The position numbers and the translations under genes are program-made. From contig JBFLGF010000084.1 in assembly GCA_050230475.1 (NCBI GenBank), forward strand, positions 1 to 64,000: a stretch of 64,000 bases of DNA, read 5' to 3'. The notes under the pieces were generated by a model. The model worked only from the letters and a program-made list of their open reading frames with translations. It searched no databases and was not told where the DNA came from. This document shows, in pieces, positions 1-47,750 of the stretch. This DNA is from Ancylonema sp. (taxonomy: Eukaryota). Every line of letters starts with the position of its first letter. Position 1 is the first letter of the stretch.

Positions 1-572
1 CAGACTCAATATGAGTACCTTAAAAAGTTGGGGACATTGACTACCGAACAAGCCAAGATACTTCTAAATGAGTTCGTAGATTCTTGGGATCCCAAGGATC
101 TAGACAACGAATTCTATGAAGAGGCTGTGTCTAGGGAAGCGCTACGCGATGTCTGGCGAAAATACTACCGCCTTCGCGCAATTTATGACATGAAGTGCAC
201 CCGCATAACTAGACCTGGCCGTGCTCCGGTGGCACCAGATCTGAGACCAGATCCGGTAGAGGAACCAGAGGAGTTGGAGGAAGTCCTCCATCTGGTTGCT
301 GAAACTTTTCATTCGTCGCAAGCAACCTATCTGGACGAGCTCCGGAAATTCACAGCCATGCGAGGAGAGGGGCTGTTGGATCTGGCAACTCGATTCGATA
401 ATCTTGCCATCCCCCTTTTAAGCGCTCATCTCACTACTAAACGTGACGTGGCGCTGGTGCTCCGCACGCACATCCCAGTCTTCCTGCGCAAGAAGACATT
501 CGCTAAAATGGAAACGGAGGATGACAAGCGACGCATACGGGGAGAGGACCCCTCCACTCGGCAAGAGATGAT
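1..572 (+). mobile_element. gag-like fragment of DNMT-carrying LTR retrotransposon family A
   Basis: ORF 28..572 closely matches the minus-strand gag at 23216-24277 (NEFVDSWD..DVWRKYYRLRAIYDMKC..DDKRRIRGEDPSTRQEMI). Ends at N573. Confidence 0.75.
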
Positions 573-573
573 T

Positions 574-4345: not shown

Positions 4346-5283
4346 CTTGGAGCACAACGGAGATTTGAGAACCAATGAAATTTCAACGAAAGATCGACTG
4401 TGCATCGATGACCGCAGTTCTATTGGGGATTGCGCTGCTTGGTGACATGTGGCAATCGGAGAGCGCGGTCAAGTCTGAGACCACGCGAAAGGCAATCTAT
4501 TTTGCGATCACATCGGACGGCTCAAAAGTGTCTCCATGGCCATGGCAGATACGTGTGCCAAATGTCCAAATGATAATCATATGCGAATTCCAGTCCTACG
4601 GATGTGCGGATGTGGTATGTACACTGCGAGGACATACATGTGGACCCCGTACAACCTGTTGCTCACATACCTACGCTGAAGCTGGGTGCAAGGATCCGTA
4701 CGCGAGGGCATGATTGAAAAAATATGCTTGGAATGGAAGGGAATCAGCTGTCGGGTGTACCCGGCGGTCACAACAACAGTAGCGGAAATTGGAACCTTTC
4801 AGAGACTCACGATACGAGCAGGAATGGAGTTTTTCCTGCTGCGGATACTCGGCAATCGTTTGAAATGGCATCTCTGAAAGCGAATTGGTCAGACCCTATC
4901 GCCTTTCAAATATGATGGCGTCGTTGCGTTTTCTGTTGACTCTGTAGAGTCTTTTCCTACGACTTGTGGCTATGTAGCTTTGCAGTACGAATTCCAGATT
5001 TTCAAAGAATTCTAGAAATTCCGTACTTGGTCTGGTATGTACGCTCTTCAACTTCTGATCCAGTAGCTTAAAATTTATCGTCGTCATCGATGATCTCCAT
5101 GAGTCATTCATATTCATGGTGAAAGGGATAGGTATGCAATTTGCGATCCGCAAATTCCGCAGCACGCGGCTAAACATGTGCCTCATGTTTTCTCGCAGGT
5201 CTTCTCCTCCTCGCATGAATCCGCGCGTGACAGAGGAGCATGAGTCTGGAAGTCCTTTGTATGCCCGAACCCGAGCGACAGGN

Positions 5284-6270
5284 AGGGCATTGGGCTGGGA
5301 GTGCTTCAATCTGCCCTGGCTTCGGGCCACCAGATCAGGTGTTACACCTACGTCGACAAAGACGACGTGAGCCGACGTGTGGCGGCAGCGATTCTTCGAA
5401 AACTCAAAAAACAATTCCCGGACCAGCTCTCAGATGCTGCCCTCCTTGGATTTGATGCTAGACTGCCTCGGAACATCGATCAGTGCAGTCCCACTTTTCT
5501 CACTAATCTGGTCGCCAATAATGGGCCAGTGGACGTGCTTGGAGCCACTTGGGAGTGCTAGAGTGTTAGCCGCGCGGGATACCGTCAAGGAATTCATGAC
5601 CCACGCTTCCGTTTCTTCTTCAATATGGTGGCAATCATCAATTTCTTCCAACGGGAGCAAAAATCCCCCCTAATATACATCCTCGAAAACACTTACCCCG
5701 GGGAACGGTGCACGACAGCTGTGCAGAATGCCCAAAATCTGGTGCAGGGATTTCTGGGAGCACCCATTCCCCTTGATGCTGCGGATATGGGATCGGTGGC
5801 GCACACAGTACGGCTGTACTGGCAGAGACGGCTCCTGACTCCAGAACTTCTTCAAGCCACTATGCCAAAGATGATGGTGCCCAAACCCACGCTGCGCTGG
5901 ATTCTGGGGCCTCACCACGTTCCTACAAAACCTGGTCACACAGACGAGCGTCCTTTTGCACCTTGGAACGTGGTCGGCCAGACTAGAATCTGCATGCCAA
6001 CAGTGGTCTCCTACATTCGGAGCAACGCCTACCGCAGCAAGTCCAATGGGGAGCCTGGAGAGGGCGAGGTTTTCAATCTGGCACGGGAGGAGTGGGAGGA
6101 GCCAAACTGCCAGGAGAAGGAGCAAATGATGGGCTACATGGCAAACGAGACGGAGTGCCCCCACGCATCAGAAGCAGAACGCTCCATGCGCCTCGGTCGA
6201 GCCCTGGCGTGGCCTGGATGCCAACGTGATGCTACACTTAGGAGCAGTGTTATTTGTTGCCCATGCGTAG
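5284..6270 (+). pseudogene. DNMT3/DRM-like C5 cytosine methyltransferase domain in Ty3/gypsy pol (family A, copy 1)
   Basis: GIGLG (end of motif I), YVDKD (II), DVLGATWEC*SVS (IV; stop 5559-5561), YILENT (VI), HTVRLYW (VIII), EKEQMMGY (IX), RLGRA/LDANVM (X, frameshifted). Confidence 0.85.
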
Positions 6271-6499
6271 GAGTCCCTCCCCACTCAGCTTGGTTCATCA
6301 ACTGGGGGAGGGGCCACCTTGCATCCAGCCTACGCCAGCATCCACTACCTCCATCCCCTCAAAAGCATGGTTTCAACCCCACCCTCATGCGTCCCATCTA
6401 CATCAACGGTCCAGCGCGCAGCAGCCGGACGTATCGTTTCCGCACTTCTGGCATCCGATATGCCCACAAATGCAGCCAACCCACCTGAGGCGGAGGGGG

Positions 6500-6826
6500 G
6501 GAGAGTCAGAAGTCCACCTCAGCGAGATAAACAAGAAAAAATCAACGTGGGAGCCAGCCTTCAGGAGCAGGACCAGCCCAGAGTCCTGACCATGCTGAAC
6601 GCGAACAGTGATCGATTTGCATTCAGCATCGAGGATCTGGAACCTTCGAAGTATAGCGGGGAGCCGATGCAACCGGAGCTGACTTCAGACAAGCCGATCT
6701 TCCGTCCCCCGCACAAATTGGGTCAAGTGGAGCTCGATTTTGTGGAGGCCTAGTGTTCCAAGTTGGAGAAGCTGGGGTTCATCAGAAGGTCCCCGCAATC
6801 CCAATATGCATCCGCTACAGTGGTAG
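6500..6826 (+). mobile_element. N-terminal part of Ty3/gypsy reverse transcriptase directly after the DNMT
   Basis: ..FAFSIEDL..ELTSDKPIFRPPHKL..EA*CSKLEKLGFIRRSPQSQYASATVVV, a typical gypsy RT start. Interrupted by an LTR at 6827. Confidence 0.8.
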
Positions 6827-6902
6827 TATAAGGAGCGGAAACTTAGTGCGGAAAGGGGAATATAAGAAATGGAAGGAAGAAATGTGAAAGAGTAGAATAT
6901 GA
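6827..6902 (-). mobile_element. LTR fragment of family D
   Basis: Matches the first 76 bp of the LTRs at 19194 and 22695. Cut by N6903. Confidence 0.85.
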
Positions 6903-7149
6903 NAACAAATGTGTGTGTCGAGCATTTTTAATGTGGATGAGTTCTAACTAACACAGTGTGGTATGACATTATCACAATTTATATTTCTTGAATAGCGAGG
7001 TTCATAGCTCTTTACACTAACTGGACTAGAACCTGGTGGTACAAGTCGGGGTTGGGGGGAGCCGGAGCAATTTACCATCGACCGAACGCACATTCGTGCA
7101 ATCGGACATCTAGACTATGTGAGACAAACGACATTACGCAACAACCGAC

Positions 7150-7800
7150 AATTATGGCGAGCATATGGCACAGCATAGCAAAGATCTTGGACAACTGGAA
7201 ATGGCAATGAACCTCTGGCACCGGTTGAGGACAAACCTGTAGACCTTGAAGCATTCTTCCAAGAGATCAGAGGCCGACTCAGATGTAATGTTTTAAAATA
7301 CGTGGTCAATAGGAACGCTTTCCGAGCCTTGCTAGGAGAATCAATGCAAAACTTCTTTCTTCGATTCGACGAGTATGCATCAGCAGTCGAGTATGATGGC
7401 GTTGACGGATGGAGACCAATTGCATCGAATTTTTTGAATGCTTTGCCTGTCAACATTTATGCTGCCATGAAGAGAGAGTGGGAAGATGAGGAGAGACACC
7501 GTGGTTGTGCTAATCCTCTTTTCCCAACAATGAACAAAGCACAGATTCGTACCATGGCCCTGTCATACGAGAAAACGATGGCCATAAGAGCTGCAAAATT
7601 CCGTGCAGCTAGTTTGGACCCGGCTCGACTGCTTTCCAATCCTCCAGAGACTTAGGCATACCAACGACCGAGGCCACCTCCTTAGCAGCAGCAACCAACG
7701 CTACCAGCGGGCTTAGCTCCTCTGCCAAGAACTTGCTTCACGTGTGGTCAGCCAGGCCATGTCAAGAGAGATTGCCCAAAATCAGCACCACCTCTAGGTG
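7150..7800 (+). mobile_element. degenerate retrotransposon gag with zinc knuckle
   Basis: ORF 7302-7655, then past TAG stops RTCFTCGQPGHVKRDC (CX2CX4HX4C) at about 7730-7777. Confidence 0.7.
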
Positions 7801-8832
7801 GTCCCCCGAAGCCTGCATCCACCGATGGCAGCAACGCGACGAGTTCAGCCAACGAGAAGGCCAAAGAAAATGGCAGTCAAGGATCTTCTCCATATCCTCC
7901 AAGTAGATATCCCTCGAGTAGATATCGAGTAGAGTAGATCGAGTAGATGTCCCTTTACTAGATTTGCTGATCACCGATAGGTCCTCGTCGATCAACCTTA
8001 TCGGCTGTGACAACTGAGTAGAAGAAGAACTCTATATCATGTACAATCCTTCGCGCAGTCTCGCGACTTTGCGAGATTTGCACTCAGTAGAGAGCCGATT
8101 ACACGTGTCGTTTGAATCCTTGCCTTTCGGGTGTCTTGCCACTGTGCTTGTGACTGCGCTTGCATAGCCCTCACAGCAACTGCAAACTTACCTCGAGTGA
8201 ACTCTAGTCGTTCAGCCAGCGATTGCCCGACGCAGCTTGCTAACGCTCTCGCATTCAAATATCGCAAAGACAACGTCGATAAAGTTCGACACTTCATACA
8301 ATGCATTTTTAGGTCAGATGGAGTGGAGAGATGAGTGATCCACAGTGGAATAGAGTAGAAACCGGCCGTCTCAAACGAAGCAGCTCGACATCGGCGATTC
8401 CAGCTTTGACTTGGCATCAAATCCCAGGCATCGCAGCTCAAAAAAAATCTGCACATCAAGACAATATGGAAGAAGCTCAACCCGGCACCACCTGCCACCC
8501 GGTAGCTAAATCTAAAGAGATTTAGCTGCAATTTCAAATTTTGTGTTGCAGGGTGAAAGGCAATCAGCTCAAACATCTGGCCATTCATTTATACATCAAT
8601 CGGAGAATTTTGACGGACACTTATCCGACGTCGACCACGAAAGACAATTCGATAGCAACAATCTTTCCCACCGACATACGGTTTCAATAGCAGCATTCAC
8701 GAAGACCGGGACATCGACAGCATGACAGGGAACAACAAGATGGAAACGTATAGTGGGGAGCTGGGGAATCGACAAAAGAAAGTCATCGACGACTGCATGA
8801 CGCAGTGGAGCGCCTTCTAGCGCCGAGAACGG

Positions 8833-9940
8833 ATGGGCACGAACCATATGTTATTCGTGAAGGAGTTGAGCACGGTGATGGGAGGGGATGTGGAGGAGGT
8901 TCGTTCAAGGGATGAGGAGATCGAGGAGGGAGAACCAGGAGCAGAGGAGAGGGAGCGCGAGATTGCAGCCCGACGTATCTGGAAGAGATACCGTCGTTGC
9001 ATGTGGTGGTGTGCATAGTTACCCGGTATGCACATTTTTGGCGTCCGTTAAGCGTACCCGTACTGGTATGGGCTTGGTACGCTCGGGTACGTGGTGGTTA
9101 ATTTTACTTTTTACTTTTTATTGGGGGAAAACCAAATTTTAAAAAAAATAAATTCCCCGTACGAACCTCGGGTTTCATCACCCAAAGTGCGCAAAATCCG
9201 GAACTTCTTCGATTGGTCAGAGAATGTGACGACTCTAATGGGGAAGACACACAAACGACGCCAAATCTATAATGTTGCAGGCTGATTGGCCGCATGATAT
9301 CGGTCCCCTGCCTTTTACGTTCGTGAATTCTGGCCGCCAACATCGAAGGGTCCTTATTATCTCCAGAAACATTGGACGGGCGTTCTTTTTCAAAAATTGA
9401 AAGATTCACTCTGGGATCCTCCCTTTCGTACGGCGGTTTCAACAAGTCGTGCGAATCAGGCAAGGGACTCCGACGAGTACCAACATTCGCAACATATCAT
9501 AAAAAGTCACGAAGTCAAGTTTGAACCATTTATGTGACATCCGTACATGGTTTCTACCGTTTTTGTACTTGCTATGGTACGCTGGGGCATGCGTTCGTTA
9601 AGCGTATCCGTATCGGAGCGTACCCTAACGGAATTGCGCACCGGGTTAATATGGTGGTGTGAGAACTCAAATCCCATGCTGCCAAGAGCTGCGGAGGAGC
9701 CGGACCGCCCTGAGATTCGAGAGCGACCAAACCTCTTCAATTTCCTGGAGGACTTCAAGAAGCGGTTCCGACAATCCTCATCGGAGTATGTCATGAAGTT
9801 GGAGACGATCAGACCGAAACCTAGAGATGGAGTGGAAACGATCTTCAGCAACTTCAACGAGATAGCAGAGGTGGTGGAGGGGACGCGCGCCTACACATCG
9901 ACTATGTTGGCGAATAAATTCCATAGCTACCTGCCAGCAC
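8833..9940 (+). mobile_element. gag-like fragment distantly related to family A gag, split by a MITE
   Basis: Removing 9014-9661 restores one frame, RIWKRYRRCMWWCENSNPMLPRAAEEPD..FRQSSSEYVMKL..FNEIA, which aligns with family A VWRKYYRL..FHSSQATYLDEL..FDNLA. Confidence 0.6.
9014..9653. mobile_element. non-autonomous TIR element (P- or hAT-like), 640 bp
   Basis: Imperfect 18-bp TIR CATAGTTACCCGGTATGC / CATATTAACCCGGTGCGC; 8-bp TSD GTGGTGTG (9006-9013, 9654-9661). Confidence 0.8.
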
Positions 9941-10870
9941 ACGACGGTCTGCTTCGACATTGGGCTGCCGTGTGGTGCATCTTCCCACAATTTTCACATT
10001 TGGCACTCTGCGTGCTCGGAAGGTTTTCGCGTGGCTGCAATGGTGGTCGAGGTGGTGGAGGTGGGAGGGGTAGTTGTGGTGCAGGCGCTCTCGGTGGCTG
10101 CTGCGCGTATCCCCCTCCTCCTCCTCCTCCTCCTCCTGCTCCTCCTGCTCCTGCTCCTCCTGCTCCTCTCCCTCCCCCAGCTCGTGGGCCTCCTCCTCCG
10201 TTGGCACTGCTGGCGCGGAAGGACAAGCTGCCTTCTGATGACCAGGCTGGTAGTAATTGTAGCACAACCCTCCTCCTCGTGCAGGTTGTGGTGTTGGTGC
10301 AAGTGTTCGACCACCTTGCAGGTATGGCTGGTAGGGAGAAGGATTTTGCCGAGGTGTAGGCAATGGTGGTGGAGTCACGAAGATTCCCGCCATCCGGTCT
10401 CCTGCAGCTGCTGTCGCCATATCTCCTGCTGTGCTGCCATCCCTCGTATCTCCTCCCTGTTCATCGGCTCCTCGCCTTCCAAAGCCCTCCTCATCCCCTC
10501 CTCCATGAACCTTGCCGCCATCAATGACACCGGTAGCGGCAGCAGTAGCTCCACCGACACCACCACATCTCATGGGAACGTCGGAGTGGTGAGCAGTACA
10601 TCAGCCCTACCGACCCTATGAAGCACCTGGTCCATCGACATCGATGGGATCAGACGTGCCACCACCCTACCCTTTTCCTTACCCTGATCTTCAAGGGGTC
10701 ATTCTATCAGTTGAACCTCGACGCTGAGGGCGACATGCTGAGCAGCGTCGACAACAAGACGACCTAGAGGCACGTCATGTCTCTTGGGTTGATGAGGAAG
10801 AGCAAGAGGAGACAAGGGAGCAACCATAAAAACCTTCCCCTCCTCCTCTTCCAACCGTCCTTCCTACCCG
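9927..10870 (-). mobile_element. gag C-terminal fragment with two zinc knuckles
   Basis: CYNYYQPGHQKAAC and CENCGKMHHTAAQC separated by a Gly/Pro-rich linker; frameshifted. Confidence 0.6.
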
Positions 10871-17029: not shown

Positions 17030-17770
17030 CCCATACAGATCCTCGTCTGTCTAACGATGTTCCATGGAGAGAATGGACGCACATCCGTGTGGCCAGGCTT
17101 GGTAGGAACATGGTGGGGTCCCAGGATCCAGCGAAGGGTGGAAGTGGGCACCATCATCTTGGGCAAGGCAGCTTGCAGCACCTCAAGTGTCAAGAAGTTT
17201 TGCTAGTAGAGACGTACCCGATGGGCCGCCGAGCCCATGTCTGCCGCGTCAAGGAGGATTGGTGCACCCAAAAAATCTTGTACCAAATCCTGGGCATTTT
17301 GAAATGCCTTCGTGTAGCGGTCCCCGGGGTAGGTATTCTCCAGGATGTAGATAAGCGGCGACGTTTGCTCCCACTGAAAGAAGTTGATGATCGCCACCAT
17401 GTTGAAGAAGAACCGGAATCTGGGGTCATGTACTCCCTGGCGGTATCCGGCCCTGTTAACACTCTGGCACTCTCAGCTAGCACCCAACATGTCGACTAGG
17501 CCGTGTCTGGCCACCAAGTTTGTGAGGAAGGTAGGGCTGTGCATTGGTCTATGTTTTGCGGCAGGCGATCTTCAAATCCATGGATGGCAGCATCTAGCAG
17601 CTGGTCTAAAAACTGATGTTGAATCGTGCGAAGAACTGCCGCTGCCACGCATCTGCTCACATCATCTTTGTCGACGTACGTATAACATCGAATCTGGTGG
17701 CCGGAAGCCAAGGCGGACCGAAGTACCCCCAATCAGATGCCTCCAAACAGTTCCAAAACATGGAGACCGT
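17030..17770 (-). pseudogene. DNMT3/DRM-like methyltransferase domain (family A, copy 2)
   Basis: GLHVLELFGGI* (motif I), YVDKD, DMLGAS*ECQSVN (IV), YILENT (VI), AHRVRLY (VIII). Collinear with 5284-5980. Confidence 0.85.
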
Positions 17771-19193
17771 CTTGCAAAGATTAGGGCGCTAGTTGACATG
17801 TGGTGGTGTTGGTGGGGATGGCGTTGTACATCTCTTGTCCCACCCAAGACGAGGTCGGGTGGATGGGATCTGGATGGAGGTGTTGAGCTTGCCGCAGGCG
17901 AAGTATGGCATTCTCCCGTCGGGTACGGTGGTTGGTCACCACCGCTTGCAGTTCAGCTGCAATGGCTGCGTCACGTAAGCGAATGGCTGCCATCTGATGT
18001 GGAGCGGCATGGTAGCCTACTTCTTTGTCCTCCTCCTCCTCACGGATTTGGTCGTAAACCGTGCCTTGCACGTCTAGCAGGTATGCTGCTTCGTCGATCA
18101 AGCCGACCATGAAGGCAGTAGCTACCACTGGAGGAGTGGAAGTGTGACATGTGGCAGATAGAGAAGAGGATTTCAGTCTACTGGATTTGTCAAAGTACCG
18201 ATAGGTAAATTGTTCTAGTATAGGCATCATAGATTCCCTTGGCTGCCCGTATGAACTCCATTCCCAATAAGATATCATAGGCAGGGGTGTCTATGATTGA
18301 AGCATGAACCAATCGCCTATGCTCATGAGGGGTGTTTCTGGCACGGACAAATTCAAGGGGTTGAGGAGTGGTCCCACGAGAACTGGCCAGCGCTCCATCA
18401 GCCGTGATGAATTCGATGCCGCGCACCAATGCGGGGGATGTTCACCCCCACGGCTACCGCATAACGCTTGCTCATCATAACACAAACCGCTCCCGTGTCG
18501 ATGATGACTTGTTGGGGGATGCAGTTGTTTACGTCGAGTACGGCTTTAGAGTTGTCAAGCAAAAGTGCGGCCGCGTGTGTCTTGGACATCTCCTCCTTTG
18601 CTACCGCAAGTACAACTTCTTCTTGCTCCATCCTCGGATGTCGTTCCTCGTTCGTGGCTTTCTCCCAGATTGCTGCTGTCAACTCAGCCAGGAGCTGCTG
18701 ATTGTCGTTGATTGAGGTCTGAAGACGTGCTGCTGCTTGGAGTGGAGTCTTGCCTTGCACGGGGTCCCCCCCCACAGATAGTGGGTCCGGGAACGTGTGG
18801 TCTGGCGGGAAGTGGAGGTTAGTGGTTCTAGGGTCCAAGCTGGAAGCGGGCAAGGCATGATGAAATGTCTGGGGAAGATGACCGGCTCCTGTCCGCTATC
18901 CTGCGATGTCATCTTCTTCCTCCTCCTCCTCCTCCTCCTCCTCTTGTTGTGGTGTACCTAACGGGACAGCTGCGGGGCTAAAGCGGACTCGACGGACAAT
19001 CTGAGTGGCTTCCTTGGTAGTTGCGGTCGGTATGGACACACGTATGGATCTGCGGCTGGCCACTGCAGCATGTGCTGGTCGAAGGTAGGTGAGGGCCATG
19101 GTCTGGTACTTGTAATCTGGCGAGATCTGGGATCGCAACTTCTTCCTCGCTTGAACAGACATGCCGTCCATTCTTCTCTTTTGGATGGACTCT

Positions 19194-22100
19194 TGTAAGG
19201 AGCGGAACTTTAGTGCGGAAAGGGGAATATAAGAAATGGAAGGAAGAAATGTGAAAGAGTAGAATATGATGAATAGGAAGACAAGGGACGAGAAATGGGA
19301 CGAAAGAGGGGGACGCACTTAAGGGAACACTATTACATGAGTTGATAGGAACGATCGAATAGATGTTCCTATCGTGTCTTAAGTACTATTGGGGAACTAG
19401 GAGGGACGGAGACTCTAGTGTAAGAACAGTAACTACTCAAGCGAGCGAAGCGAATCGAATAGCTAACGGGAAATACGAACGGTGACTACTCAAGCGAGCG
19501 AAGCGAATCGAATAGCTAACGGGAAATACGTCGGGATAGAACTAATGACTATGTGTACGGAAACTTAAAAGCTAAGCGAAACGAAAGTTAAGCGAAACGG
19601 AAGTGAAGCGAAACGAAAGTCAAGCGAAACGGCGGGCGGAATTCCCGTCGGGCTAAGTATCGTACTCTACTTAGTATCGTACGTTAGGAACACACTAGTG
19701 ATCCTAACAGGATCCCCCGTTAAAAGAACAAAAGATGATATCGGGGTTTCAAAGGAAATTCAATATAAAAGATATATTGTGGACGTGGAAGACTGAAGTG
19801 GAAAGAACGGACTAGAAATAAAAGATTTGAATGGGTCGGAACGGTGGAGATGCGCTAGATTGGGAAAAAGAGACCAGAAACTAAATGCGAAAAATTGGAT
19901 ATGGTGAAGTGGAGCCCCCCGCGGATTGGTTGAGGACGTGGGACGGAGGTGACTGGAAGGACGAGATGAGGGGAATCCTGAAAAGGACGCTGCGCCGTTG
20001 GTTCGGAAAGAGTGGACGGTCGCGGGAGGGGAAAATAGTGGAGAAGGCTTGAAACTGAAAATCGGGTTACCGAATTGAAAATAGCGATTTTGGCCAAGAT
20101 TGGATGGAGAATAAAAAAAAGAGGGCAGAGACGGGGCCACACCCAGGGATGATCGCCAGACCGAGGTTTTGGAGGGTGAGGGAAATATATGCGCGACGCC
20201 GATGAATGCGAGATATTGGACGGTTGCAGGACGGCGATTGTTGGAGGGAGCCACGCCGGCTTTGAATGAGAATCTCGGGACCGGAGTCACGTCGGACCAT
20301 GCACCATGGACGAGAAAGGGTGCCGATTGACGAAGCCATGGTGATGGAGTAGCAGTCGGCGTAGTTGGAGTGACGGAAAGGGCTGCGTGGATGTCATGGA
20401 GATCGGAGGACGGACGGCTAAAGAAGGAGGAGGACGGGCTGGCTGAACAGGGCCGTGGGTCGGGTAGGACGGCGGGGATGGGACCCGGAGGCTGGCGGCT
20501 GGAAGGGAGGGAGAACAGGCAAACACGAAGGTAAGGGGACGGATGGATGATAAAACAAGTAGGGTGAATCTTGTGGGATGCCAATAGCGTGGATGCCAAC
20601 AGCATAAGCTAGGTGCCCGGGGTTCGACTCCCCGGGGGATTATAAACATAAAAGCAGAATGTAGTAATAGAAAGAATGATGAATGTAGGGTGTATGACAG
20701 GAAAAAAAAAACGAGCTTGTGGATTGCTGGATACGGCAGCTGGCATGGTAGGGCGGTGAGCATGACAGGGTGTTGTGGTAGACGCAGCAGCGCTGTTTGA
20801 TGGGTAGGTAAGGCTGCAGGATTGGGGGGGGTTTGGTGGGGAAGGTGATGGAACAGGGCGGCATGGGCGAGACCCAGCGGCTGGAGGGGAGAAAGGGATT
20901 GGGACCGAATGTGGTTCTGGTTCTGATTCTGGTTCTGATTCTGGTTGAGACGCTGGTTCTAAATGTGGTTCTGGTTCTGCTCTTGTTGTTGCAGCTTGTT
21001 GTGGTTCTGGGTCTGGTTTCGATTCTGGTTTTGGATTCCGGTTCTGGATCTGGTTGCAGGGACTGGAGCTCAGGGCGTGACCTGAGGCTGGATGAGCTGG
21101 ATTTGGGTCTGGGATTGGGGATGGGTTATGGGTTTGGACTGGTTGCAGGACGGGAGCGGGGGCGGGAGCTGGCGGGGTTTGGCGGCTTGGAGAGATGGGA
21201 TAGAGGGAGGAGGCGGAACAGAGTGGCAGGTAAGGAGTGGAGAAGGGGAAGGGGGATGGGAGGGGCACGACAGCTAGGACGGGACCCGGCGGGATGGAAG
21301 GGAGGTGGGGGATGAATTGGTGCAGGGCAGGGAGGCTGGGGCTGGGTGGCAAGGAGGGGGGGGGGTGGGGCAAGATCTGGCGGCTAGGGGGAAATGGAGC
21401 TCGGATGGGGCCTGTCGGGACAGGTAAGGTGCCGGGAGGGGGGGGGGGGCTCTGGAATGGGACCTGGCGGGGCAGGATGGACCTGGCGGGGTTTGATACA
21501 GGGCGGCTTCGGCTGGGAGAGATGGGATAGAGGGAGGAGGCGGGACAGAGTGGCAGGTAAGGAGTTGAAAAGTGGAAGGGGATGGGAGCTCTGGCCGAAC
21601 AGGTTTGATGAGATTGAGGGGGAACGGGGATGGGAGGGCAGGACAGCTGGGACGGGACTCGGCGGGATGGAAGGGAGGTGGGGGAGGAATTATTGCAGGG
21701 CGGGGAGACTGGGGCTGGGTGGCAAGGGGGGGGGGGAAATGTTATGGGGGCAGGATCTGGCGGCTGGAGGGGAAAATGGAGCGGATCTGGTGGCTGGAGG
21801 GGAAAATGGAGGTGCTGGGAGGGGTGGGGGGGCCTGGGATGGGACCTGGCGGGGCAGGGAGGATGTTGGGGGGGGGAAGGGGAAAACTGGTGGTTGGAGG
21901 GGAGGGGGAACTAGGATGAGCCCTTGCGGGGCAGGTGGCTTGCTGGGAAGGGGGTTGGGGTGTTTCTTGGAGGGGCGGGAGGGCTGGCAGAAGTCTGGCA
22001 CGTGTCGTTGAAGCCGGTGTATGGGAGGGGATTTCAGGCCGGTTAGGGGACGTAGGAAGATGGACAGAGTAGGAGGAAGTAGGGAAGATGTGGACTTTGA

Positions 22101-23215
22101 AGGTCTGCTGTGGTAGGGTAAGGAGGGGGAATGGATTGAAGAGGATGATTGTAGAAGTGAGAATAGGATGAAGGGGAGGGGGGGGGGGGGGGCAGAAATT
22201 GGTATGTTGGGATATTTGAGACGAATTAATGTTTTATGCAAATTGCTGAGTTTTGTTGGTCTGAATGCTTTGCGCTGAATTGTTTTTGCGCTGAATTGTT
22301 TTAATTCATGAAGATTTTGAGGGCGGGGATGATTTTTCGGAAATGTAAAACACTAAATTCTGATTGAAGACGGGCCACGCGGCAGTCTCCTCCACCATGT
22401 GGTGGCGAGTTGAGCCATGAGAAAAAAAAACGGGAATAAAGAAATGGAATAAGATGAGGGAAGGAATGAAGGAAAAGGGAGGAAAAATAATGAAAAAAGA
22501 AAAATGGAAGAGAAAGAAAAGGATAGAGATAATAAAAAAAACGGCAAATGGCGAGAAAAAATGAAGAGAAGAAGAGGGAGAAAAGAAGGAGATGAAACTC
22601 CCAAAACAGAAACGAAGGAGACGGAACTCCCGAAGCAGAAACGAAGGAGACGGAACTCCCAAAACAAGAAAGTTTATTTCCTATCAAAGTGTAGTGTAAG
22701 GAGCGGAACTTTAGTGCGGAAAGGGGAATATAAGAAATGGAAGGAAGAAATGGGAAAGAGTAGAATATGATGAATAGGAAGACGAGGGACGAGAACTGGG
22801 AAGAAAGAGGGGGAAGCACTTAAGGGAACCCTATTACATGAGTTGATAGGAACGATCGAATAGACGTTCCTATCGTGACTTAAGTACTATTGGGGAACTA
22901 AACTAGGAAGGACGGAGACTCTAGTGTAAGAACGGTAACTACTCAAGCGAGCGAAGCGAATCGAATAGCTAACGGGATACGAACGGTGAGTCCTCAAGCG
23001 AGCGAAGCGAATCGAATAGCTAACGGGAAATACGTCGGGATAGAAATAATGACTATGTGTACGGAAACTTAAAAGCTAAGCGAAACATAAGTGAAACGGC
23101 GGGCGGAATTCCCTTCCGTCTAAAGTCAAGCGAAACGGCGGGCGGAATTCCCGTCGGGCTAAGTATCGTACTCTACTTAGTATCGTACGTTAGGAACACA
23201 CTAGTGATCCTAACA
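19194..23215 (-). mobile_element. non-autonomous LTR element (LARD-like, family D)
   Basis: LTRs 19194-19709 and 22695-23215 (TG..CA), 5-bp TSD ACTCT, purine tract next to the 3' LTR. The 3-kb interior has no gag or pol motifs. Confidence 0.9.
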
Positions 23216-25164
23216 ACTCTGGTATCTGTTTTGGATGCTCCTTCCAGAATTGTGCTAAGGTGTGTCCTTCCTTTTTGCAGCCCGAGCAGATGACGTCCTT
23301 CGTGCAGTGCCCGGCCAGCGGGTCGACTTTCGTCGAGGCTGGAGGTGCTGGTTTTGCCTCTTTGGGATTGGGACAATTCCTTGGCGATGTGGCCTTCGTG
23401 TTGACACCGATGGCATCTCCGGTTATGAGTGATGCTGGGATCCACCACCCTACTCCCCAGGCGATCCTTGAGTTGTACTCTTTCTCCTAACCGATCTGCC
23501 ATGGCCCTCTTGGGTCGTGCATCCACCACCACTTCCAGGGCAGCGTTGACGGGAGCATGGGCATCATAGGAGCAAGGATCGGTGGAGCGAGGGGGTGGAA
23601 TCTCTCCACACTTGCGCATTTCAGCTTCGTGGGCGATGATGTTCATCTCCACCTCACGGGCGATGGCAATCATTTCCTGGCGCGTGGATGGATCTTCCCC
23701 CCGAATGCGTCGCTTATCATCCCTGAGTCTCCATCTTGGAGAAGGTCTTCTTGCAAAGGAAGACAAAGATGTGTTTTCGGAGCACCAAAGCTAGATCACG
23801 CTCGGTGGTGAGATGGGCATTCAGAAGTGGGATGGCCAAATTGTCGAATCTAGTTGCCTGATCTAACAGCCCCTCGCCCGGAAAAGCTGTGAAATTCCTG
23901 AGGTCATCCAGATAGTCTGCTTGCGAGGACTGAAAAGTTTCAGCCACAATTAGGAGGAATTCTTCCAACTCCTCGGGCTCCTCTTTCGGATCTGGCCTAA
24001 GATCTGGCACGACTGGGGCTCGGCCAGGTCTGGACATGCGGGTACATTTCATGTCGTATATAGCTCGAAGACGGTAATATTTTCTCCATACATCTCGCAC
24101 AGGTTCCCTGGGGACAGCGTCCTCATAGTACTGGTTGTCTAGATCTTTGTGGTCCCAGGAATCCACAAACTCATTTAAGAGTCTTCGAGCCTGACCAGTT
24201 ATAAGGGCACCCAACTTCTTTAAGTATTCATATTGTGATTGCCCCCGTGTGATGTGTCTCTGAGTATCCTCCTGCAAGTCTTCCCAACCTTGCCTAGCTT
24301 ATCGGAAGAACCACTCTTGCAAGATACCTGGTCCACCCGAATACAGGGTGGATGCGGTTGCCAAAATCATTCCTGACAATTTTTTTTTTTTATTTTTTTT
24401 TTTTTGTGATAACACTTGGTCAGATTATATCCAAGCTTGACAGTGGCCGGACGTCCCTAAACTCGAAAGATCTTCTCGATCACTAGTTGCTGATCGGTTC
24501 TATGGCCGACACTAAGGTCCAAATGCTAGACGACAATAATAACGACCAATGCGACATGGTCACTGCTATCGCCGACACCTAACAAGCATCCGTACATAAT
24601 TGCATGTCCTTCTAAGGCCTATCTCAACACATTGCCTGTTCTATGCCTTAGCTAGAATATTGCGGCTCACGTCACTCGTTGTCAGATGCACTTTAACGTG
24701 TCGCGAAGCGACAAACATGTTCGCGCCGCCCAAGGCTTTCTAACGGTAGTCTTGGCGATCGCGGAGACGTCCCAATTCTCCCAACGGTTGGGTGAGGATC
24801 TTGACTTAGCTAGCTCCGTCTCAGGCGGCGGTCATGGCGGGGACACCTGACCAATGATTCCCCTAACCGAGTGCACACTCACGCCCCTCCTATTCCGTCT
24901 GTACGATTGGCTTGTTGCAATGATCGCCCTCTAAACTTTAAAGTTCCTCCGTGCTATACGAATAATTAAACCAACATATAGTATTCTGCCGAACCTAGGT
25001 TGCGCGGGTGTTTCCGCCGAAACACAAATTTCGCAGTCAAACAGGCGTTTTGCAATCAAACATGCGTTTTGTAAGGACCTAGCCCAAGGCAAAATTAACC
25101 CGTATCATATGAGTTAACCGCCTTATTGGCATTGTATAAGCACACGAGTGTTTATGGCATGACA

Positions 25165-35062: not shown

Positions 35063-36399
35063 GCACCATTCAATCTCTGTTGAATTCTCCTGACCTCAGG
35101 TGTGTGAGGACCTGACACTTGAGCAGAGTATGATGACCGAGCTCAGTTCCTTCAGGCAACAGATTTATGTGTAAAGTTCCGAATCACTACAGATCGCAGG
35201 AAGGTAGTACACGTGGTAAACCACTCGGGCAGAGATGATATGACTTACCATTTATATCGTCTCGCACACACAGTGTAGGTCTGTGAAACCCCATTTCTAT
35301 TCGGACATCAAGGACCAGGTAGGCGAGTCCGAGAAAGAAGGTTACCACTGCTATGGCCGCAAAAACATTCGCTACGCAGCCCCAAGTGGGCACGTGTCGA
35401 TACTTCCTGATCAGCCAAACCCCGGAGGAAGAAAAAAGTGATGTGCATCGGTCAGAAAACGGATTTAACCTTGTTGACCTGGACGTCGTTCTCGTTCAAA
35501 TTTTTCGATCGAATTCATATTTCTCTACTCCACTTCTGAATGTAAAAGAGTTTTATATAAGTTCCTTGTACACACCGTGGCAATGGAAGTCGGCCATTGA
35601 CGTGCATGCGGCTAGAAGTTGATCGGGGGGTGTCCTCGGGAGAAGTGCCGGGTGACCCTGAGGTGGGTAGCAATTGAATGTTCTCATAATTGGGTCTGTG
35701 TAGATGAACTCGTTGTGTGGGCTCCTTCGCTTTGGGTCGAGCGAGGTTTGCAGCCCAACTGGAGGAGGGAGTGCCCATCATATATGAAAACACAGAGGGT
35801 TATCATGAGGAATTGGGTTGGGCACGTGATGGTGATATGAATGAAAATTCAGATTGAGGACCTGCTGCGGAATGTGATTGGTACTTACAGAGCAGGAGCA
35901 GTGGGCCGTAGGCAGCCTACACTAAACCTAGACTAGGTCTACACGACATTTTTTTTTGTGTACGGCTGGTGAGGACTTCGAAGTACTGGCTAAGTTTGGA
36001 GTGTTCAACGCTTATCTTGGTCTTGGTAAAAAAATGCTTTTTGGACTCGGGCCCGACAGGAGGGTGGCGCAGTGATTAGATTCGTGCGATACCGCTTCGA
36101 AGACAAGAGTCATGTATTATATTAAAACACACTCGAATACCTCTTTGGCACTTTCCTCTATGTAAGGCTTGCATAATCACTTTGTGCAACATTAGATCAA
36201 CCTAATTCCTTTAATGGAAAAATTGACTCTCAACATATTTTTCTAATATTCTAGTAGCACTCATCATCACGTGAAATTATGTTGTGTACAACTCACGTGT
36301 ATACTTTGTTTATAACTTGCGTACATTATTGAAATCTCGACAAGTGAGCTATCTCACAACTTCATTACATAGATTAATGAGGGCATAATAGCCAGGACT

Positions 36400-38462
36400 A
36401 CATCCCGGCGACACGCTCGGTGGGCGGCCACCCTCGCTGCCCACCATTACACCATCACCTATCGGAAAGGTGCCATCAATGGAAAACCTGATGCCCTCTC
36501 ACGAAGGCCAGATCTTCAACCCCCTCCCCTCCCCTCCCTCCCCATCATCCCGCCCCCAGCCACAACTCCCTATCTTTTCCACACCCCTCACCTAATCGGA
36601 GCTGCGGTGCTGGTCAGGCCAGATGATCCCCTCCTTCCTAAAGTTGCAGCAGCCCAAGCGGCAGATCTTGCATTGTTTGCACTCAAAGCACATGTTCTGG
36701 GAGGAGCTGGCGAGGAGTCAAACCCCGCACTCCTAGCAGGCAGCCCATCGGGCAGTTCGTGGGGTCAGTATGAGGTTAGGGGGGGTCTGCTGTATAGTCA
36801 AGGCAAGCTCTGCATCCCCCCCATTTCCGGGGCCCTAATCCTTAAACTACTACAGCAAAATCATGACAGCCCGTTGGCGGGGCACTATGGGGTGGCGAGG
36901 ACCCAGGCGCTACTGGCGCAGTACTACACCTGGCCCGGACTTGCTGCGGCGGTTGCCAAATACGTGGGGAGTTGTGATACTTGTGCGCGCAATAAGGTGG
37001 TGCGACATGCTCCCTACGGTCTCTTGTCTCCTCTTCCTATCCCTTCCAGGCCCTAGAGAAGCGTGTCCCTTGATTGGATCACCGACCTGCCTCCAAGCCA
37101 CTACCACGATGCTATCCTCGTGGTCGTGGACCGCCTCACTAAGGCGGCCCACTTCATTCCTACAACTAAATCCATGGCGGCTCCGGACGTGGCTCCACTT
37201 TTCCTCCAGCATGTGGTTCCGGCTCACGGTCTTCCTGACACCCTAGTGAGCGATCGCGATCCGGTGTAATATTCACTTCCCACTTGTGGCGGCGGCTGCT
37301 AGAGCTGCGTGGCATTCAGGCCAATCGCTCTACGGCTTTCCATCCCCAGACGGACGGGCAGACGGAGCGGTTGAATTCGGTGCTGGAGCAGTACTTGCGA
37401 GTACTTGTCGGACTACCAACAGTCCGACTGGGCCAGCCTCCTCCCTCTGGAAAAATTTTCATACAACAACTCGCGCCATTCAGCCACAACAATCTCCCCA
37501 TTCTTTGCCAACTACGGTTTCCATCCCCGGATGTCCCTGCTCCCCCCAGCCCCAGCCTCCCGCACCCCTGCTGCCGATTCCTATGTCGCGCAACTTCGGG
37601 AGGCCCAAGATATTTTGCAAGAAGCTCCTCAAATCCCGCAAAGCCATGGAGGTTTCGGCCAATGGAAAACGCCGACCGGCTCCACCCTTCGTCGTTGGTC
37701 AACAAGTGTGGTTGTTGAGGCGCCACATCACGACAACCCGACCCTCGTCAAAGCTGGATGTTCGTCGACTCGGTCCCTATCCTATCATTGGCCAAGTCGG
37801 CTCCTTAGCTTATCGCTTGGGGCTGCCTTCCCACCGTTAAAATCCACCCCGTCTTTCATGTGAGTCTCCTGGAACCACATGTTCCCAACACTTTCCCGGG
37901 AAGGGTCGTGGCGCCTCCTCCAGCCATACAAGTGGATGGTGTCCCTGAGGAGTTCGAGGTCCACTCAATCCTAGATTCGCGAGTTCGGCGCCGCAAGTTG
38001 GAGTATCTAGTGGATTGGGTCGGCTACGATGCATCTGATTGCACTTGGGAGCCGGCAAATGCACTGACCAATACTGCAAATGCGGTCGCCGATTTCCATC
38101 AAAAATTTCCGTCTCGGCCTCGCTGACACGTGCCCTCCTTTTGATGTTGGATCCTGTTAGGATCCACTCTCTAGCATTAGTTCCGCTAGCGAGTGTTCCT
38201 AACCTTAGTTAAGACCTTAGAGCCTTAACATATGTTCACTCCTTAGTTTCTCCGACTCCTACCCTTTGTCGTTGTGTGTGTATGCTCTTTTTGTCACTTA
38301 GCGACACTATTTTGTACTCAAGCACTTGAGAAGTGTCCTCTCAAGTGCCCTTATCAATTCATGTCTTTTACACATCGTGTTCTCTTCCTATTCCTGAAGT
38401 CTGAGATGTGTGTAATTGTGCTTGTTACAAGCAGGGCATTCCTGCTTAGGAGCTGCCTTACA
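36400..38462 (+). mobile_element. chromovirus 3' half: RNase H end, integrase, chromodomain, 3' LTR (38156-38462)
   Basis: [90 protein letters not shown]. Confidence 0.95.
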
Positions 38463-41477: not shown

Positions 41478-41667
41478 CCTTTCCCGATGGTTAACCAGAA
41501 ACTGTCCTGGATCAAGTTATGGCCCGGTGGATGAGCAATGGCACACTCGCCCAAGAGTGCTTCGAGACGTCAACAATCACTTGGAAGTGCTCAATGCAAA
41601 AGTGTTGGAGAGGGAACGTCTTGACTCAATCGCAGCTCGGAGGGCCAACGTCATCCCTGCCATGCCG

Positions 41668-44600
41668 TGTGAAATACTCATTTTCTCTTATGAGTATTCG
41701 TAAGGGTGCGAGATGTAACTTAGATCATTCGCATACTTTGCTCGGAATAGATCACTTAGAAGTATTAATTTATCTTTGGCTGAGTACAAGAGTAAGTCTC
41801 TGCTCGAATAAGAGGATAGGGCGCGGCGGCGGAGGCGGCGCCAAGCTGACCAATGAGGAATCAGCTTGGTCCGATTTAAGTTCTGACTGAATTTAGCGAA
41901 TCTAATCCGATACGAACTTAACGAAATCGCGTGTCCATATTGCACGATTTCGTACTTCAAAGCACGCGTCACACTTTAGCATTACACACTCAACACACCC
42001 CCTTAATGTTAATTGTGACAAAAAGTAAAACTGCCGAAACTAAAAAACTAACGTAACACATGACAAATGCTACATCAACCAAAATAAAACATCACGTGAT
42101 AAAACTGGACACCCTACATCATTCTAATCAACTTTTTGCTATAGCGAACGACTCCCACACTCGCATGCTTAGTCATCATGTCTGCTCCCATATTCCCCGC
42201 ACTGATTTTAACGAAGTACATTCTCCACCCTGTCGCGCACGAAGTGGTACCTGGCCAGGATTTGTTTCGTGCGAGCGTCCGGGTTGTGCACGATGTCCAG
42301 TGCCGGCTGGCTGTCCACGAGCACCTTACAGGTACTCCCACCCCAACGTCCCCTTGCATTTGGAGTTGGGAGTTGTCGCAGAAAGATGACCTCCTGTGCT
42401 GCTTCGGAGAACCCCATGTATTCCGATTCGCAAGAGCTCAGACTGGCATTCCCCAACAGTTTCGACTGCCAGCTGACCGGACCACCAGCCGATAGGATCA
42501 CAACAAACGCTGCTCGGGGGGAGCGTGAAGTGTCCGGACAAGTAAGATGGCTTGAGTCGCAGTAACCCCACAGAGCAGTCGAAACTCCCTTCTTGAAACA
42601 GATACCCTCCCCACACTTGGTGCCTTGCAGGTATCGCAGCACATGTTGGACCCCCTCCCAATGAGCCATGCCGGGGTTATGGTTGAACCGACTGAGGCAG
42701 CTGACAGCTGCGGAGATGTCTGGTCGCGTACAGACTGCCAGGTACATAAGGGATCCAATGGCACTTCGGTAAGGGATGGCTGCCATTGTTTTCATGTCTG
42801 GTGCAGATGTTGGCGAGTCCGTCTGGCTGAGTTTGCAACCAGGGGGCGGAGGAGTGCTGGCTGCCCGAGGGTTGACGACCGGGTACCTCAAGAGCACCTC
42901 TCCCAGGTACTTCTCCTGCAGCAGTTGAACATCCCCCCCTGGTAGGCGCCTGATCTCCATACCCAGTAGGATTGCAGCACCGAGGTCCTTCATCCTGAAT
43001 CTGCTGTGCAGAAAACCTTTCACCCCTTCGATGAGCTCCATCACCTTGCCGATGACAAACATGTCATCGACGAACAGCCCTAGCAGGATCCGGCGCCCCC
43101 CCTGATGGATGGCGTACACGCAGAAGTCGGAGGTGAGTCGCTCCAGCCCGAACTCAGAGAGTGCCGCCTTGTCCACGTGCATGTTCCACATGCGGGGGGA
43201 GTGCTTCAGGCCATACAGCGCCTTGAAGAGCGGAAGCACCTTCCCGGGCATCTCCACCCCGAACATCCCCTCTGGAATTTCCAGGTAAACCTCCTCCTCC
43301 AAGTTTGCGTACAAAAACGCTGTCGTCACATCATCCAGCTGTTCCATATGCATCCCCTCTGATGCAGCAGCTGCAAGCATTAGGCGTATGCTTTCAAACC
43401 TGGCTGTTGGGGAGTACGTTTCCGTGTTGTAGTCGATCCCCTCAGCTTGCATGAAACCCCCGTGCGACGAGGCGCGCTTTATATTTCTGCACCTCCCCCG
43501 ACAGGCCCCTCTTCCTCTTAAATACCCATTTGCTTGTGATGACAGGGTGACGAGGCCTGTCCACCACGGTGAACACCTTGTTCTCCACCAGCGAGGCCAC
43601 CTCCGCCACGCACGCCACCAACCACCGCTCCGAGTCAGGTGACTTCATGGCCTGCTTGAAGGTTTTTGGGTCATCTGCAAAACTCTCCATCGTAGCCAGC
43701 ATGAGCATGTCCTCCATGTACCGCGGAGGGACGCCTCGACTCTCCTAGGAGCTGCGGCGCAGGGCTGGGGCAATTGGAAGGGGTGGGGGCTGGGCTGCAG
43801 AAGGGTTCTCGTCGACTGGGGCCTCCGCCGGGGCTGGGACCGCGGCTGGGGCTCGGACCACGGCTGGGTTTGTTTTTGCGTCTAGGACCGCGGTTGGGGC
43901 CTCTTCTGGGGCTAGGAATGCGGCTGGGGCCTCTGCTGGGGCTGGGACTGCGGCTGGGGCCCCGTTGCAGGTTGGGGCACCGTGTGCTGCGGTCGGAGGC
44001 ACTCTTGAGGCGGGTGCGCTTGTATTTGCAGGTGGGGGAGGAGCAGCAGGGAAGACGAGCGGGTTTTCTTCGACGTCTTCAACTCCAGCAACTGCTGACG
44101 AAGGTGCGCGCCACCAGCTTGGAGGAGCAGCTTCATCGAAAGCGAGAGCAGCGACGTCGTACACCTTTTGCCGCTCTGTGTCCCACACACGGTAGGCAAG
44201 GCTGTGCGACGTGCAGCCCACCAAGACACCGATGAAGCTCATTGGTGCGAACTTGCCTCCTCGCGCAGACTTTGGGATCTGGCAAAACGCCTTGCAACCC
44301 AGCACCCTCAGCTTGGAGAGGTTGGGCTTTTGCTCTGTCCACATCTCTCACGGCGTGCAAACCAGGTTGGTGGCTGGTGACATGTTGCGTAGCATGTTGA
44401 TCGCGTGCAGCACCTCAGCCCACATGTAGCTAGGCAGCAACGAAGTTGACATGACTGTTCTGGTCTTGTCCTGCACAGTGCGGTTCCACCTCTCCGCCAC
44501 GCCGTTGCTCTCCGGGGAGCGAGGGGGTGTGGTCTGCAGCTGCACTCCCAGCAGCGCCATTGACGACTTGTACGCGTTGGAGGTAAACTCCCCCCCGTTG

Positions 44601-46869: not shown

Positions 46870-47119
46870 AACGTCATCCCTGCCATGCCGCCACGAGAGA
46901 CACTTTCCCCTTTTCAACGCCAAGTGGCACAAGCAGCACAACGAGCAGCAGTGGAGAAAGCAGTTCGAGAGATTCACAACAAGCGTCGATGGATGAGAGG
47001 GTTACAAATCAAAGCATAAGGCCTTTCTCTCCAGCCACTCACCAGAAGTGTGGAGCCTAGGTCCGGGGATCCCATCCTTCAAGCCGAGGCCATCGATACC
47101 ACTCCTATCACTTTCTCTC

Positions 47120-47750
47120 AGCTTCAACTCCAAACCGGCCTTCATTTGGTCGAACTTTTTGCTGGCGCCTGTTGCAGCACTCTGCTCGCACATTTCATGG
47201 CAGGCCACAAAATCAACAAGTACACAACTGTGGAGAAAGATCCGGTGGCAAGAGGCGTGTCTTGTCAGTATGTCACCAATCTCCATCTACGCTTTCCACA
47301 CTTGCTACCTCTATCAGCAATCGAGGGCTTCGACACAAGGTTACCTGACCATGTGGAGTCCGTCAGCATCACAGTGTTAAAGAATTATGCTGCTCGCCAC
47401 GGTCAGATCGACTTCGTGGGAGCCGGTTTTCCTTGCCAGCCAATGAGTCCTGCAAGAAATGGACTTGGAGTCAGAGACGATCGTTTCTCTCCATTCTTCG
47501 ACATGACAATAATTTTGACTTGATGCCAACGTGAACAGCAAGGTCGACCATTTCAGTACCTGCTCGAGAACGACCATCCATCGACGACCTAGCCATCTGA
47601 ACAATGAAAACATGAGGTCGGCAAATACCTTTCTTCTCGCATTCCCTGGAGAGCCTCTCCTCCTGGATGCAGCTTCAGTTGGCGGTCCCACGCATCGACT
47701 TCGGCGCTACTTGACAAACATCATGGCAGCCAACAAGTTACAAAATTCCA
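47120..47750 (+). pseudogene. C5 cytosine methyltransferase domain (family B)
   Basis: GLHLVELFAGA (I), TVEKD (II), IDFVGAGFPCQPMS (IV), QYLLEN (VI, after stop 47521-47523), LLDAASVGGPTHRLRRY (VIII). Truncated at the C-terminus. Confidence 0.88.

What the first reader, a model, noticed from the sequence alone, without database searches (positions are those of the whole stretch)
5284..6826. Retrotransposon-encoded cytosine methyltransferase fused between protease and RT (gag-PR-DNMT-RT)
Seen: an almost complete set of C5-MTase motifs (end of I, II, IV, VI, VIII, IX, X) runs directly into a gypsy RT N-terminus. The sister copy (24277 to 17030) shows gag, zinc knuckle, DTG protease and then the same MTase. 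Together they give gag-PR-DNMT-RT. Known: DNMT3-carrying Ty3/gypsy elements were reported in the charophyte Klebsormidium (de Mendoza et al. 2018), so the concept is not new, but it is rare. Inference: the protease would release the enzyme inside the particle, where it could methylate the element's own cDNA or its insertion site.
Basis: partly seen in the sequence, partly recalled or inferred. Interest (0 to 1): 0.9.

Follow-up and report, generated by a model that had tools for sequence, protein, structure and literature searches.

The report
Jumping gene carrying its own methyltransferase
This is a broken copy of an abundant retrotransposon family, likely from a green alga, that encodes a DNMT3-like DNA-methylating domain at the end of its capsid-protease protein; a conserved stop codon separates it from the reverse transcriptase, so the domain would be made at capsid levels and likely methylates the element's own new DNA copies.

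Summary
The domain is real, the claimed fusion is not the rule. Window 5286-6270 is a decayed DNMT3-type C5-methyltransferase, followed by a gypsy RT N-terminus. Intact relatives encode gag-CCHC-protease-DNMT as one ~1200-aa ORF and RT-RNaseH-integrase-PHD as a second: 21 of 26 cluster representatives that reach motif X end at the same residue, and 11 of 12 pol hits lack the DNMT. The UAG at 6268-6270 shows no variant at 2% or more among 1354 laid contigs, is in frame with pol, and precedes a C-run/G-run hairpin. Readthrough is my best reading (about 50%); Ogre-like splicing is the main rival. dN/dS between two window copies is 0.04. The DNMT belongs to a large gypsy-PHD lineage that carries it at two positions (after RNase H, or before RT). 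The concept is published (KnitGypsy-Dnmt3, DNMT in the Pol ORF), and this scan noted a DNMT3-PHD gypsy before in another genome. What looks new is the Gag-level placement behind a conserved stop. Activity, substrate, expression and termini are untested.

The parts
5286..6270 (+). Decayed DNMT3-type C5 cytosine methyltransferase, C-terminal domain of ORF1 (copy 1); broken by a stop at 5559-5561 and a 10-nt insertion at 6207-6216
   Evidence: both breaks are absent from most other copies laid
6268..6270 (+). Native UAG ending ORF1, in frame with pol
   Evidence: no variant at 2% or more in runs X1-X3; 21 of 26 representatives end here
6274..6313 (+). C-run / variable loop / G-run, predicted RNA hairpin just 3' of the stop
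   Evidence: fold z -1.5 to -2.6 in four overlapping pieces; 11 of 17 loop positions vary, arms nearly fixed
6271..6826 (+). Pol linker and RT N-terminus (ORF2), one internal stop at 6751-6753, cut by an insertion
   Evidence: tblastn to P0058 residues 1-183, 53%, one frame
6827..6902 (+). Start of an LTR of another element inserted in the RT; ends at the N at 6903
   Evidence: 95-97% to 19196-19269 and 22691-22770
23216..24370 (-). Sister copy 2: gag with zinc knuckles
   Evidence: tblastn with P0044-P0050
19194..23215 (.). Nested 4-kb element with two ~520-bp LTRs (92% alike) and a 5-bp target duplication, splitting copy 2
17032..19193 (-). Sister copy 2: end of gag, aspartic protease (18505-18485), linker, DNMT motifs I-VIII; cut at 17032 next to a copia RT
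4..573 (+). gag fragment of the same family, ending at the N at 574; link to copy 1 not shown
   Evidence: 76% to copy 2 gag; dN/dS 0.07
46957..47749 (+). Third, divergent DNMT fragment (35% identity, canonical Pro-Cys motif IV)

Best explanation
The stretch is a dead copy of an abundant Ty3/gypsy family whose first reading frame encodes gag, protease and a DNMT3-like domain and ends at a conserved UAG, with RT, RNase H, integrase and a PHD finger in a second frame that is likely reached by stop-codon readthrough, so the domain would be made at Gag levels and likely methylates the element's own cDNA. Shown: the two-ORF layout in relatives, the conserved stop, the DNMT3 fold of a relative's model, purifying selection, and abundance. 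Inferred: (1) a few percent of ribosomes read the UAG through, helped by the hairpin, giving the full polyprotein; (2) every Gag brings a DNMT into the particle and the protease frees it; (3) it methylates cytosines on the new cDNA so that the copy arrives pre-marked; (4) the PHD finger reads unmodified H3 tails and steers integration away from active promoters.
For: Stop: no variant or indel at 2% or more at 6268-6270 or indel in 6225-6345 among 1354, 426 and 357 contigs of X1-X3; in 5 of 5 out-of-frame gene calls picked for crossing the ORF1 end, UAG is the only stop compatible. A fixed-length peptide upstream of the first common pol Met is conserved in distant subfamilies, so translation enters pol before that Met. 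Sister lineage P0061 reads through the same place as sense codons. Enzyme: profile hits DNMT3A E 1.5e-22, DRM-type 1.4e-14, HhaI 3.5e-9; model of P0003 pLDDT 96.3, best fold DNMT3A E 5.7e-18; catalytic Cys 133, Glu 134, Arg 132 and 132 of 134 domains; dN/dS 0.04 over 230 codons, dS saturated. PHD best matches KMT2D, DPF3, CHD4, KDM5, AIRE, UHRF1 fingers.
Against: No RNA or protein evidence: RNA run X11 laid nothing on the junction. 2 of 32 pol gene calls (P0053, P0317) open in the -1 frame across the ORF1 end, and P0056 may too; readthrough cannot explain these unless they carry indels. The ten codons right after the stop are not conserved as protein, and no compensatory pair change was seen in the hairpin; its z-scores are modest. 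Motif IV is Trp-Glu-Cys, not Pro-Cys, in this family. KnitGypsy-Dnmt3 showed no activity in yeast, which the authors call inconclusive (PMC5890265). CpG o/e in family pieces (0.64-0.91) is no lower than in neighbouring copia and chromo-gypsy pieces (0.57-0.76).
Confidence: 0.5

Rival explanations
1. Same two-ORF layout and Gag-level DNMT, but pol is reached by splicing: a short intron removes the stop (as in Ogre), or a longer one skips the DNMT and joins gag-protease to RT.
For: Ogre separates GAG-PROT from RT-RH-INT by an intron spliced in part of the transcripts (PMC6317226, passage). Frame differs in P0053 and P0317. A C-rich tract and YAG sites follow the stop; the majority letter at 6301 makes a YAG just before the G-run. 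Protein conservation starts only at the Gly run.
Against: No conserved GT donor found by eye in the window's subfamily; no recurrent joint with GT..AG ends among the 15 of 24 joints shown, none; spacer lengths keep the frame in the window's subfamily, P0006 and P0022.
Confidence: 0.25
2. Pol is made separately, by reinitiation or from an internal promoter at the conserved Met about 33 codons after the stop; the stop is an ordinary terminator.
For: A Met at this place is present in nearly all pol N-termini. Tca2 has promoter activity in its gag-pol junction (PMC2194720, abstract).
Against: The 17 residues before that Met are conserved with conservative changes; the stop stays UAG across diverged subfamilies; a Pol without Gag would need another route into the particle.
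Confidence: 0.12
3. The DNMT acts in the nucleus on host chromatin or on other elements, or binds nucleic acid without methylating, rather than marking its own cDNA.
For: Gag-level amounts exceed what one cDNA per particle needs; atypical motif IV; no yeast activity for the Klebsormidium enzyme (PMC5890265).
Against: All catalytic residues are kept across 134 domains; in 75 of 155 relatives the domain sits between RNase H and integrase, beside the cDNA-handling enzymes.
Confidence: 0.2
4. One reading: one constitutive gag-PR-DNMT-RT polyprotein, the stop being decay of this copy.
For: True fusions exist in sister lineages: P0061, P0136, P0187, P0228, P0248; KnitGypsy has DNMT in the RT ORF.
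Against: The stop is fixed in the family, unlike the stops at 5559 and 6751, which 97% or more of laid depth lacks.
Confidence: 0.03

Closest known systems
KnitGypsy-Dnmt3 of Klebsormidium nitens (de Mendoza et al. 2018, PMC5890265)
   Same: Ty3/gypsy element with an intronless, non-rearranged Dnmt3-type domain, kept catalytic residues, purifying selection, streptophyte-alga context.
   Different: There the DNMT is in the Pol ORF with RT and RNase H (main text; peer-review file), 33 DNMT genes in the genome, and DIRS-like repeats. Here it ends the gag-protease ORF before a conserved stop and the family is very abundant. The domain order in their Fig. 4c could not be seen (figure and large supplement not held); 'PHD' and 'protease' were not found in the 3 supplements searched.
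Ogre elements (PMC6317226)
   Same: ORF1 gag-protease, ORF2 RT-RH-integrase.
   Different: Ogre has a ~274-bp intron between the ORFs and no DNMT; here a single in-frame UAG.
Tj1 of S. japonicus, Tca2 of C. albicans, type C retroviruses (PMC4600332, PMC2194720)
   Same: A single in-frame stop between structural and pol frames that must be bypassed.
   Different: Their stop lies after gag; here it lies after protease and DNMT.
Gypsy-7a_cRei (bioRxiv 10.1101/2022.06.16.496473) and EpiLTRs (bioRxiv 10.64898/2026.05.21.726589)
   Same: PHD finger in an algal gypsy; DNMT in LTR elements.
   Different: No DNMT is listed for Gypsy-7a; EpiLTR DNMTs are DNMT4-related, come with Dam and a chromodomain.
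Closterium sp. NIES-68 GJP34393.1 (P0132)
   Same: CCHC-protease-DNMT in one protein without RT, 37% identity in the DNMT.
   Different: Annotated only as hypothetical protein; ends about 70 residues after the DNMT.

Membership tests
C5 cytosine methyltransferase, DNMT3 family | Motifs I-X in unpermuted order with catalytic Cys, Glu (ENx) and RxR | tested here: met
   the window copy itself has lost the first Arg and is broken
C5 cytosine methyltransferase, DNMT3 family | Closer to DNMT3 than to DRM, DNMT2 or bacterial enzymes | tested here: met
   profile and fold searches; no tree with host DNMT3 was built
C5 cytosine methyltransferase, DNMT3 family | Pro-Cys dipeptide in motif IV | tested here: not met
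   Glu-Cys in this family; Glu 81, Pro 42 of 134 domains
C5 cytosine methyltransferase, DNMT3 family | De novo DNA methylation activity | not testable with these tools
   needs an assay
Ty3/gypsy retrotransposon | Order gag-PR-RT-RH-IN | tested here: met
   relatives; the window holds only gag, PR and the RT start
Ty3/gypsy retrotransposon | LTRs, primer site, target duplication | not testable with these tools
   no 3' end in the window, no genome, no DNA of close relatives found
KnitGypsy-Dnmt3 | DNMT in the same ORF as RT and RNase H | tested here: not met
   conserved stop; met only by sister lineages
KnitGypsy-Dnmt3 | DIRS-like repeat arrangement | not testable with these tools
   termini not available
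KnitGypsy-Dnmt3 | Same clade in DNMT and RT trees | tested here: inconclusive
   trees built but no row could be labelled as Klebsormidium
Readthrough-type gag-pol junction | Conserved in-frame leaky stop with 3' structure | tested here: inconclusive
   UAG fixed and in frame here, hairpin modest, 2 of 32 pol calls in -1 frame

The most novel reading that the evidence does not exclude
A retrotransposon moved a captured DNMT3 into its structural frame and put the readthrough stop behind it, so each particle is packed with hundreds of methyltransferases while a PHD-tipped integrase reads H3 tails: a mobile writer-reader pair, amplified to very high copy, that could shape the methylome of its algal host.
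Probability: 0.3. Interest if true: 0.8.

Novelty: new variant of a known kind. Interest (0 to 1): 0.55.

Why it matters
Why retrotransposons carry the enzyme that silences them is an open question. A family that makes the DNMT at Gag levels, next to sister lineages that make it at Pol levels or place it beside the integrase, gives a natural comparison: particle-associated cDNA marking against action on host chromatin. It also shows the gypsy-DNMT3-PHD lineage is large (1179 representatives at E<=0.001 for the DNMT query, of which only the best 150 were examined), not a Klebsormidium oddity.

Tried and rejected
No whole genome is held. DNA of close relatives was not found: DNMT patterns in metagenome and viral contigs gave 0 of 382 and 0 of 114 candidates; the pol scan gave 79 distant gypsy loci, none with a DNMT hit, and 0 of 34 in viral contigs. 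Single-sequence folding failed (pLDDT 34). The Atlas gave no usable hit for P0045, so no taxa. RNA run X11 laid nothing on the junction, which proves nothing. Runs with small unlaid shares were not used. Joints ending near 6300 lack GT..AG ends and have low depth: rejected as splice evidence. CpG depletion is not specific to the family. Chance nesting rejected. A -1 frameshift before the stop rejected by eye: no slippery heptamer in the window. Gao et al. 2003 on recoding signals is not held and was not read. Depth ratios are not a copy number.

Full report
Observation. The six-frame translation and motif mapping show a C5-methyltransferase from 5286 to 6270, missing the first residues of motif I, with a stop after the catalytic Cys (5559), a changed first Arg in motif VIII and a 10-nt insertion in motif X. 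Read with X at the stop it scores PF00145 at E 4.9e-4, just below the cut-off. A gypsy RT N-terminus follows to 6826, where an LTR of another element begins. The piece is bounded by single N letters at 5283 and 6903, probably assembly joins. The sister copy on the minus strand has gag, zinc knuckles, protease and the DNMT up to motif VIII; it is split by a 4-kb LTR element with a 5-bp target duplication and holds no RT. Neither copy alone shows the whole element.

Family. The DNMT query found 42 proteins of similar length and 7 longer ones. All 7 carry protease plus DNMT and none has RT. The RT query found 12 proteins; 11 lack a DNMT, and the full-length ones end in integrase plus PHD finger; P0061 has DNMT fused to RT. 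Of 50 cluster representatives examined, 26 reach motif X and 21 of these end exactly 17 residues after it; with cluster members and near hits of the wider search it is 54 of 62. ORF1 and pol gene calls share contig lengths, from which I infer that they lie on the same contigs. Laying contigs of four runs on 4900-7100 gave summed depth near 138 on the left flank and 119,000 to 1,075,000 on 5270-6823 in X1 (13,399 contigs laid). The tool warns this is no copy number; it does show a very abundant repeat. The stops at 5559 and 6751 are absent from 97% or more of the laid depth, so they are decay of this copy.

The junction. In contrast, 6268-6270 shows no variant at 2% or more, and no indel at that level occurs in 6225-6345, among 1354, 426 and 357 contigs of X1, X2 and X3 (X1 and X2 are one sample). 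Pol continues in the same frame. Five out-of-frame gene calls that I picked because they cross the ORF1 end allow only UAG as stop there. Behind the stop lie a C-run, a variable loop (11 of 17 positions vary) and a G-run that fold into a hairpin, z -1.5 to -2.6. A fixed-length peptide from the Gly run to the first common Met is conserved in distant subfamilies. This fits readthrough. Against it: 2 of 32 pol calls open in the -1 frame (P0053, from a copy whose DNMT call is truncated, and P0317, intact-looking; P0317 read by eye), the first ten codons are not conserved as protein, and there are no RNA data. Ogre-like splicing stays a serious rival.

Enzyme. A profile of 69 relatives hits DNMT3A at E 1.5e-22, a DRM-type chain at 1.4e-14 and HhaI at 3.5e-9 (the DRM label for 4onj is recalled). 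The model of relative P0003 has pLDDT 96.3 and matches DNMT3A best (E 5.7e-18, TM 0.82 on the target). Catalytic Cys, Glu and both Arg are kept in 133, 134, 132 and 132 of 134 domains; motif IV reads Trp-Glu-Cys in this family. Motif numbering is from my own knowledge. Between window copies 1 and 2 dN/dS is 0.04 over 230 codons with saturated dS, as low as gag (0.07).

Wider lineage. The representative search found 1179 proteins at E<=0.001; the best 150 were listed. Among 155 proteins classified (those plus 5 others), 75 have the DNMT after RT/RNase H or before integrase, 15 have it after protease or before RT, and 65 show only the DNMT. In a FastTree of 134 DNMT domains with good coverage (shorter ones and near duplicates dropped) the 72 first-type rows fall in one clade (0.87) with no second-type row; the window copy groups with P0117 (1.0) inside a clade (0.999) that includes the fused P0061. 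RTs of 42 first-type and 15 of 16 second-type proteins stand apart from 69 general gypsy RTs (0.94). The trees are midpoint-rooted, so the direction of the move is not shown. The only named member is a Closterium protein of the second type. With the ice-metagenome label of laid run X3 this suggests a conjugating green alga as host; that is inference.

Mechanism. Most likely ORF1 is translated at high level, giving Gag-protease-DNMT, and pol comes by rare bypass of the UAG. The DNMT then enters particles with Gag and would methylate the cDNA. The PHD finger is closest to fingers of KMT2D, DPF3, CHD4, KDM5, AIRE and UHRF1; that several of these read unmodified H3 is recalled, and would parallel the ADD domain of DNMT3A. 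None of this is tested. No family-specific CpG loss is visible.

Literature seen. PMC5890265: parts 1, 3 and 4 of 7 of the text, passages, and passages of 3 supplements; the large supplement and figures were not available and bear on the domain order of KnitGypsy-Dnmt3. Passages only: PMC12344493, PMC6338049, PMC6317226, PMC4600332, and bioRxiv 10.64898/2026.05.21.726589, 10.1101/2022.06.16.496473, 10.1101/2021.11.30.470311 (preprint supplements are closed). Abstract only: PMC2194720. Searches listed no paper describing a DNMT at the end of a gag-protease ORF before a conserved stop; most subscription journals are not in the library. The scan's own note e1-7364918 reports a DNMT3-PHD gypsy in a moss-like genome; I did not check it.

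Verdict. A real, selected DNMT3-like domain in an abundant gypsy-PHD family; a new variant of a published kind. The two-ORF layout is well supported (about 85%), readthrough about 50%, function inferred. Interest 0.55.

Noticed in passing
window 574, 5283, 6903, 16314, 56485: Five single N letters; three fall exactly at ends of pieces of this family, which suggests contig joins.
   Followed up: partly
window 19194-23215, 6827-6902: One ~520-bp LTR family with a low-complexity interior is inserted twice into this DNMT family in the window, and the end of protein P0040 shows the same junction type; possible insertion preference or partner element.
   Followed up: partly
window 46957-47749: A divergent DNMT fragment with canonical Pro-Cys directly behind a copia LTR; a second DNMT-element family in the same genome. 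Not placed on the tree.
   Followed up: partly
window 7140-7830 and 9700-9942: Distant gag-like pieces (24-29% to ORF1), the first with a CCHC knuckle at 7734-7775.
   Followed up: no
window 41662-46813: Near full-length copia element with 96% alike LTRs; related solo LTR at 1929-2312.
   Followed up: no
window 36373-38100: Integrase and chromodomain-like end of another gypsy element (chromodomain read by eye).
   Followed up: no
window 24381-24407: A long A-tract (minus strand) just upstream of the gag start of copy 2; the Lys-rich leader of P0079 hints at the same feature.
   Followed up: no
P0138, P0215, L006: P0138 has a G-patch between DNMT and integrase, P0215 has two PHD fingers; locus L006 has a PHD hit but no DNMT hit.
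   Followed up: no
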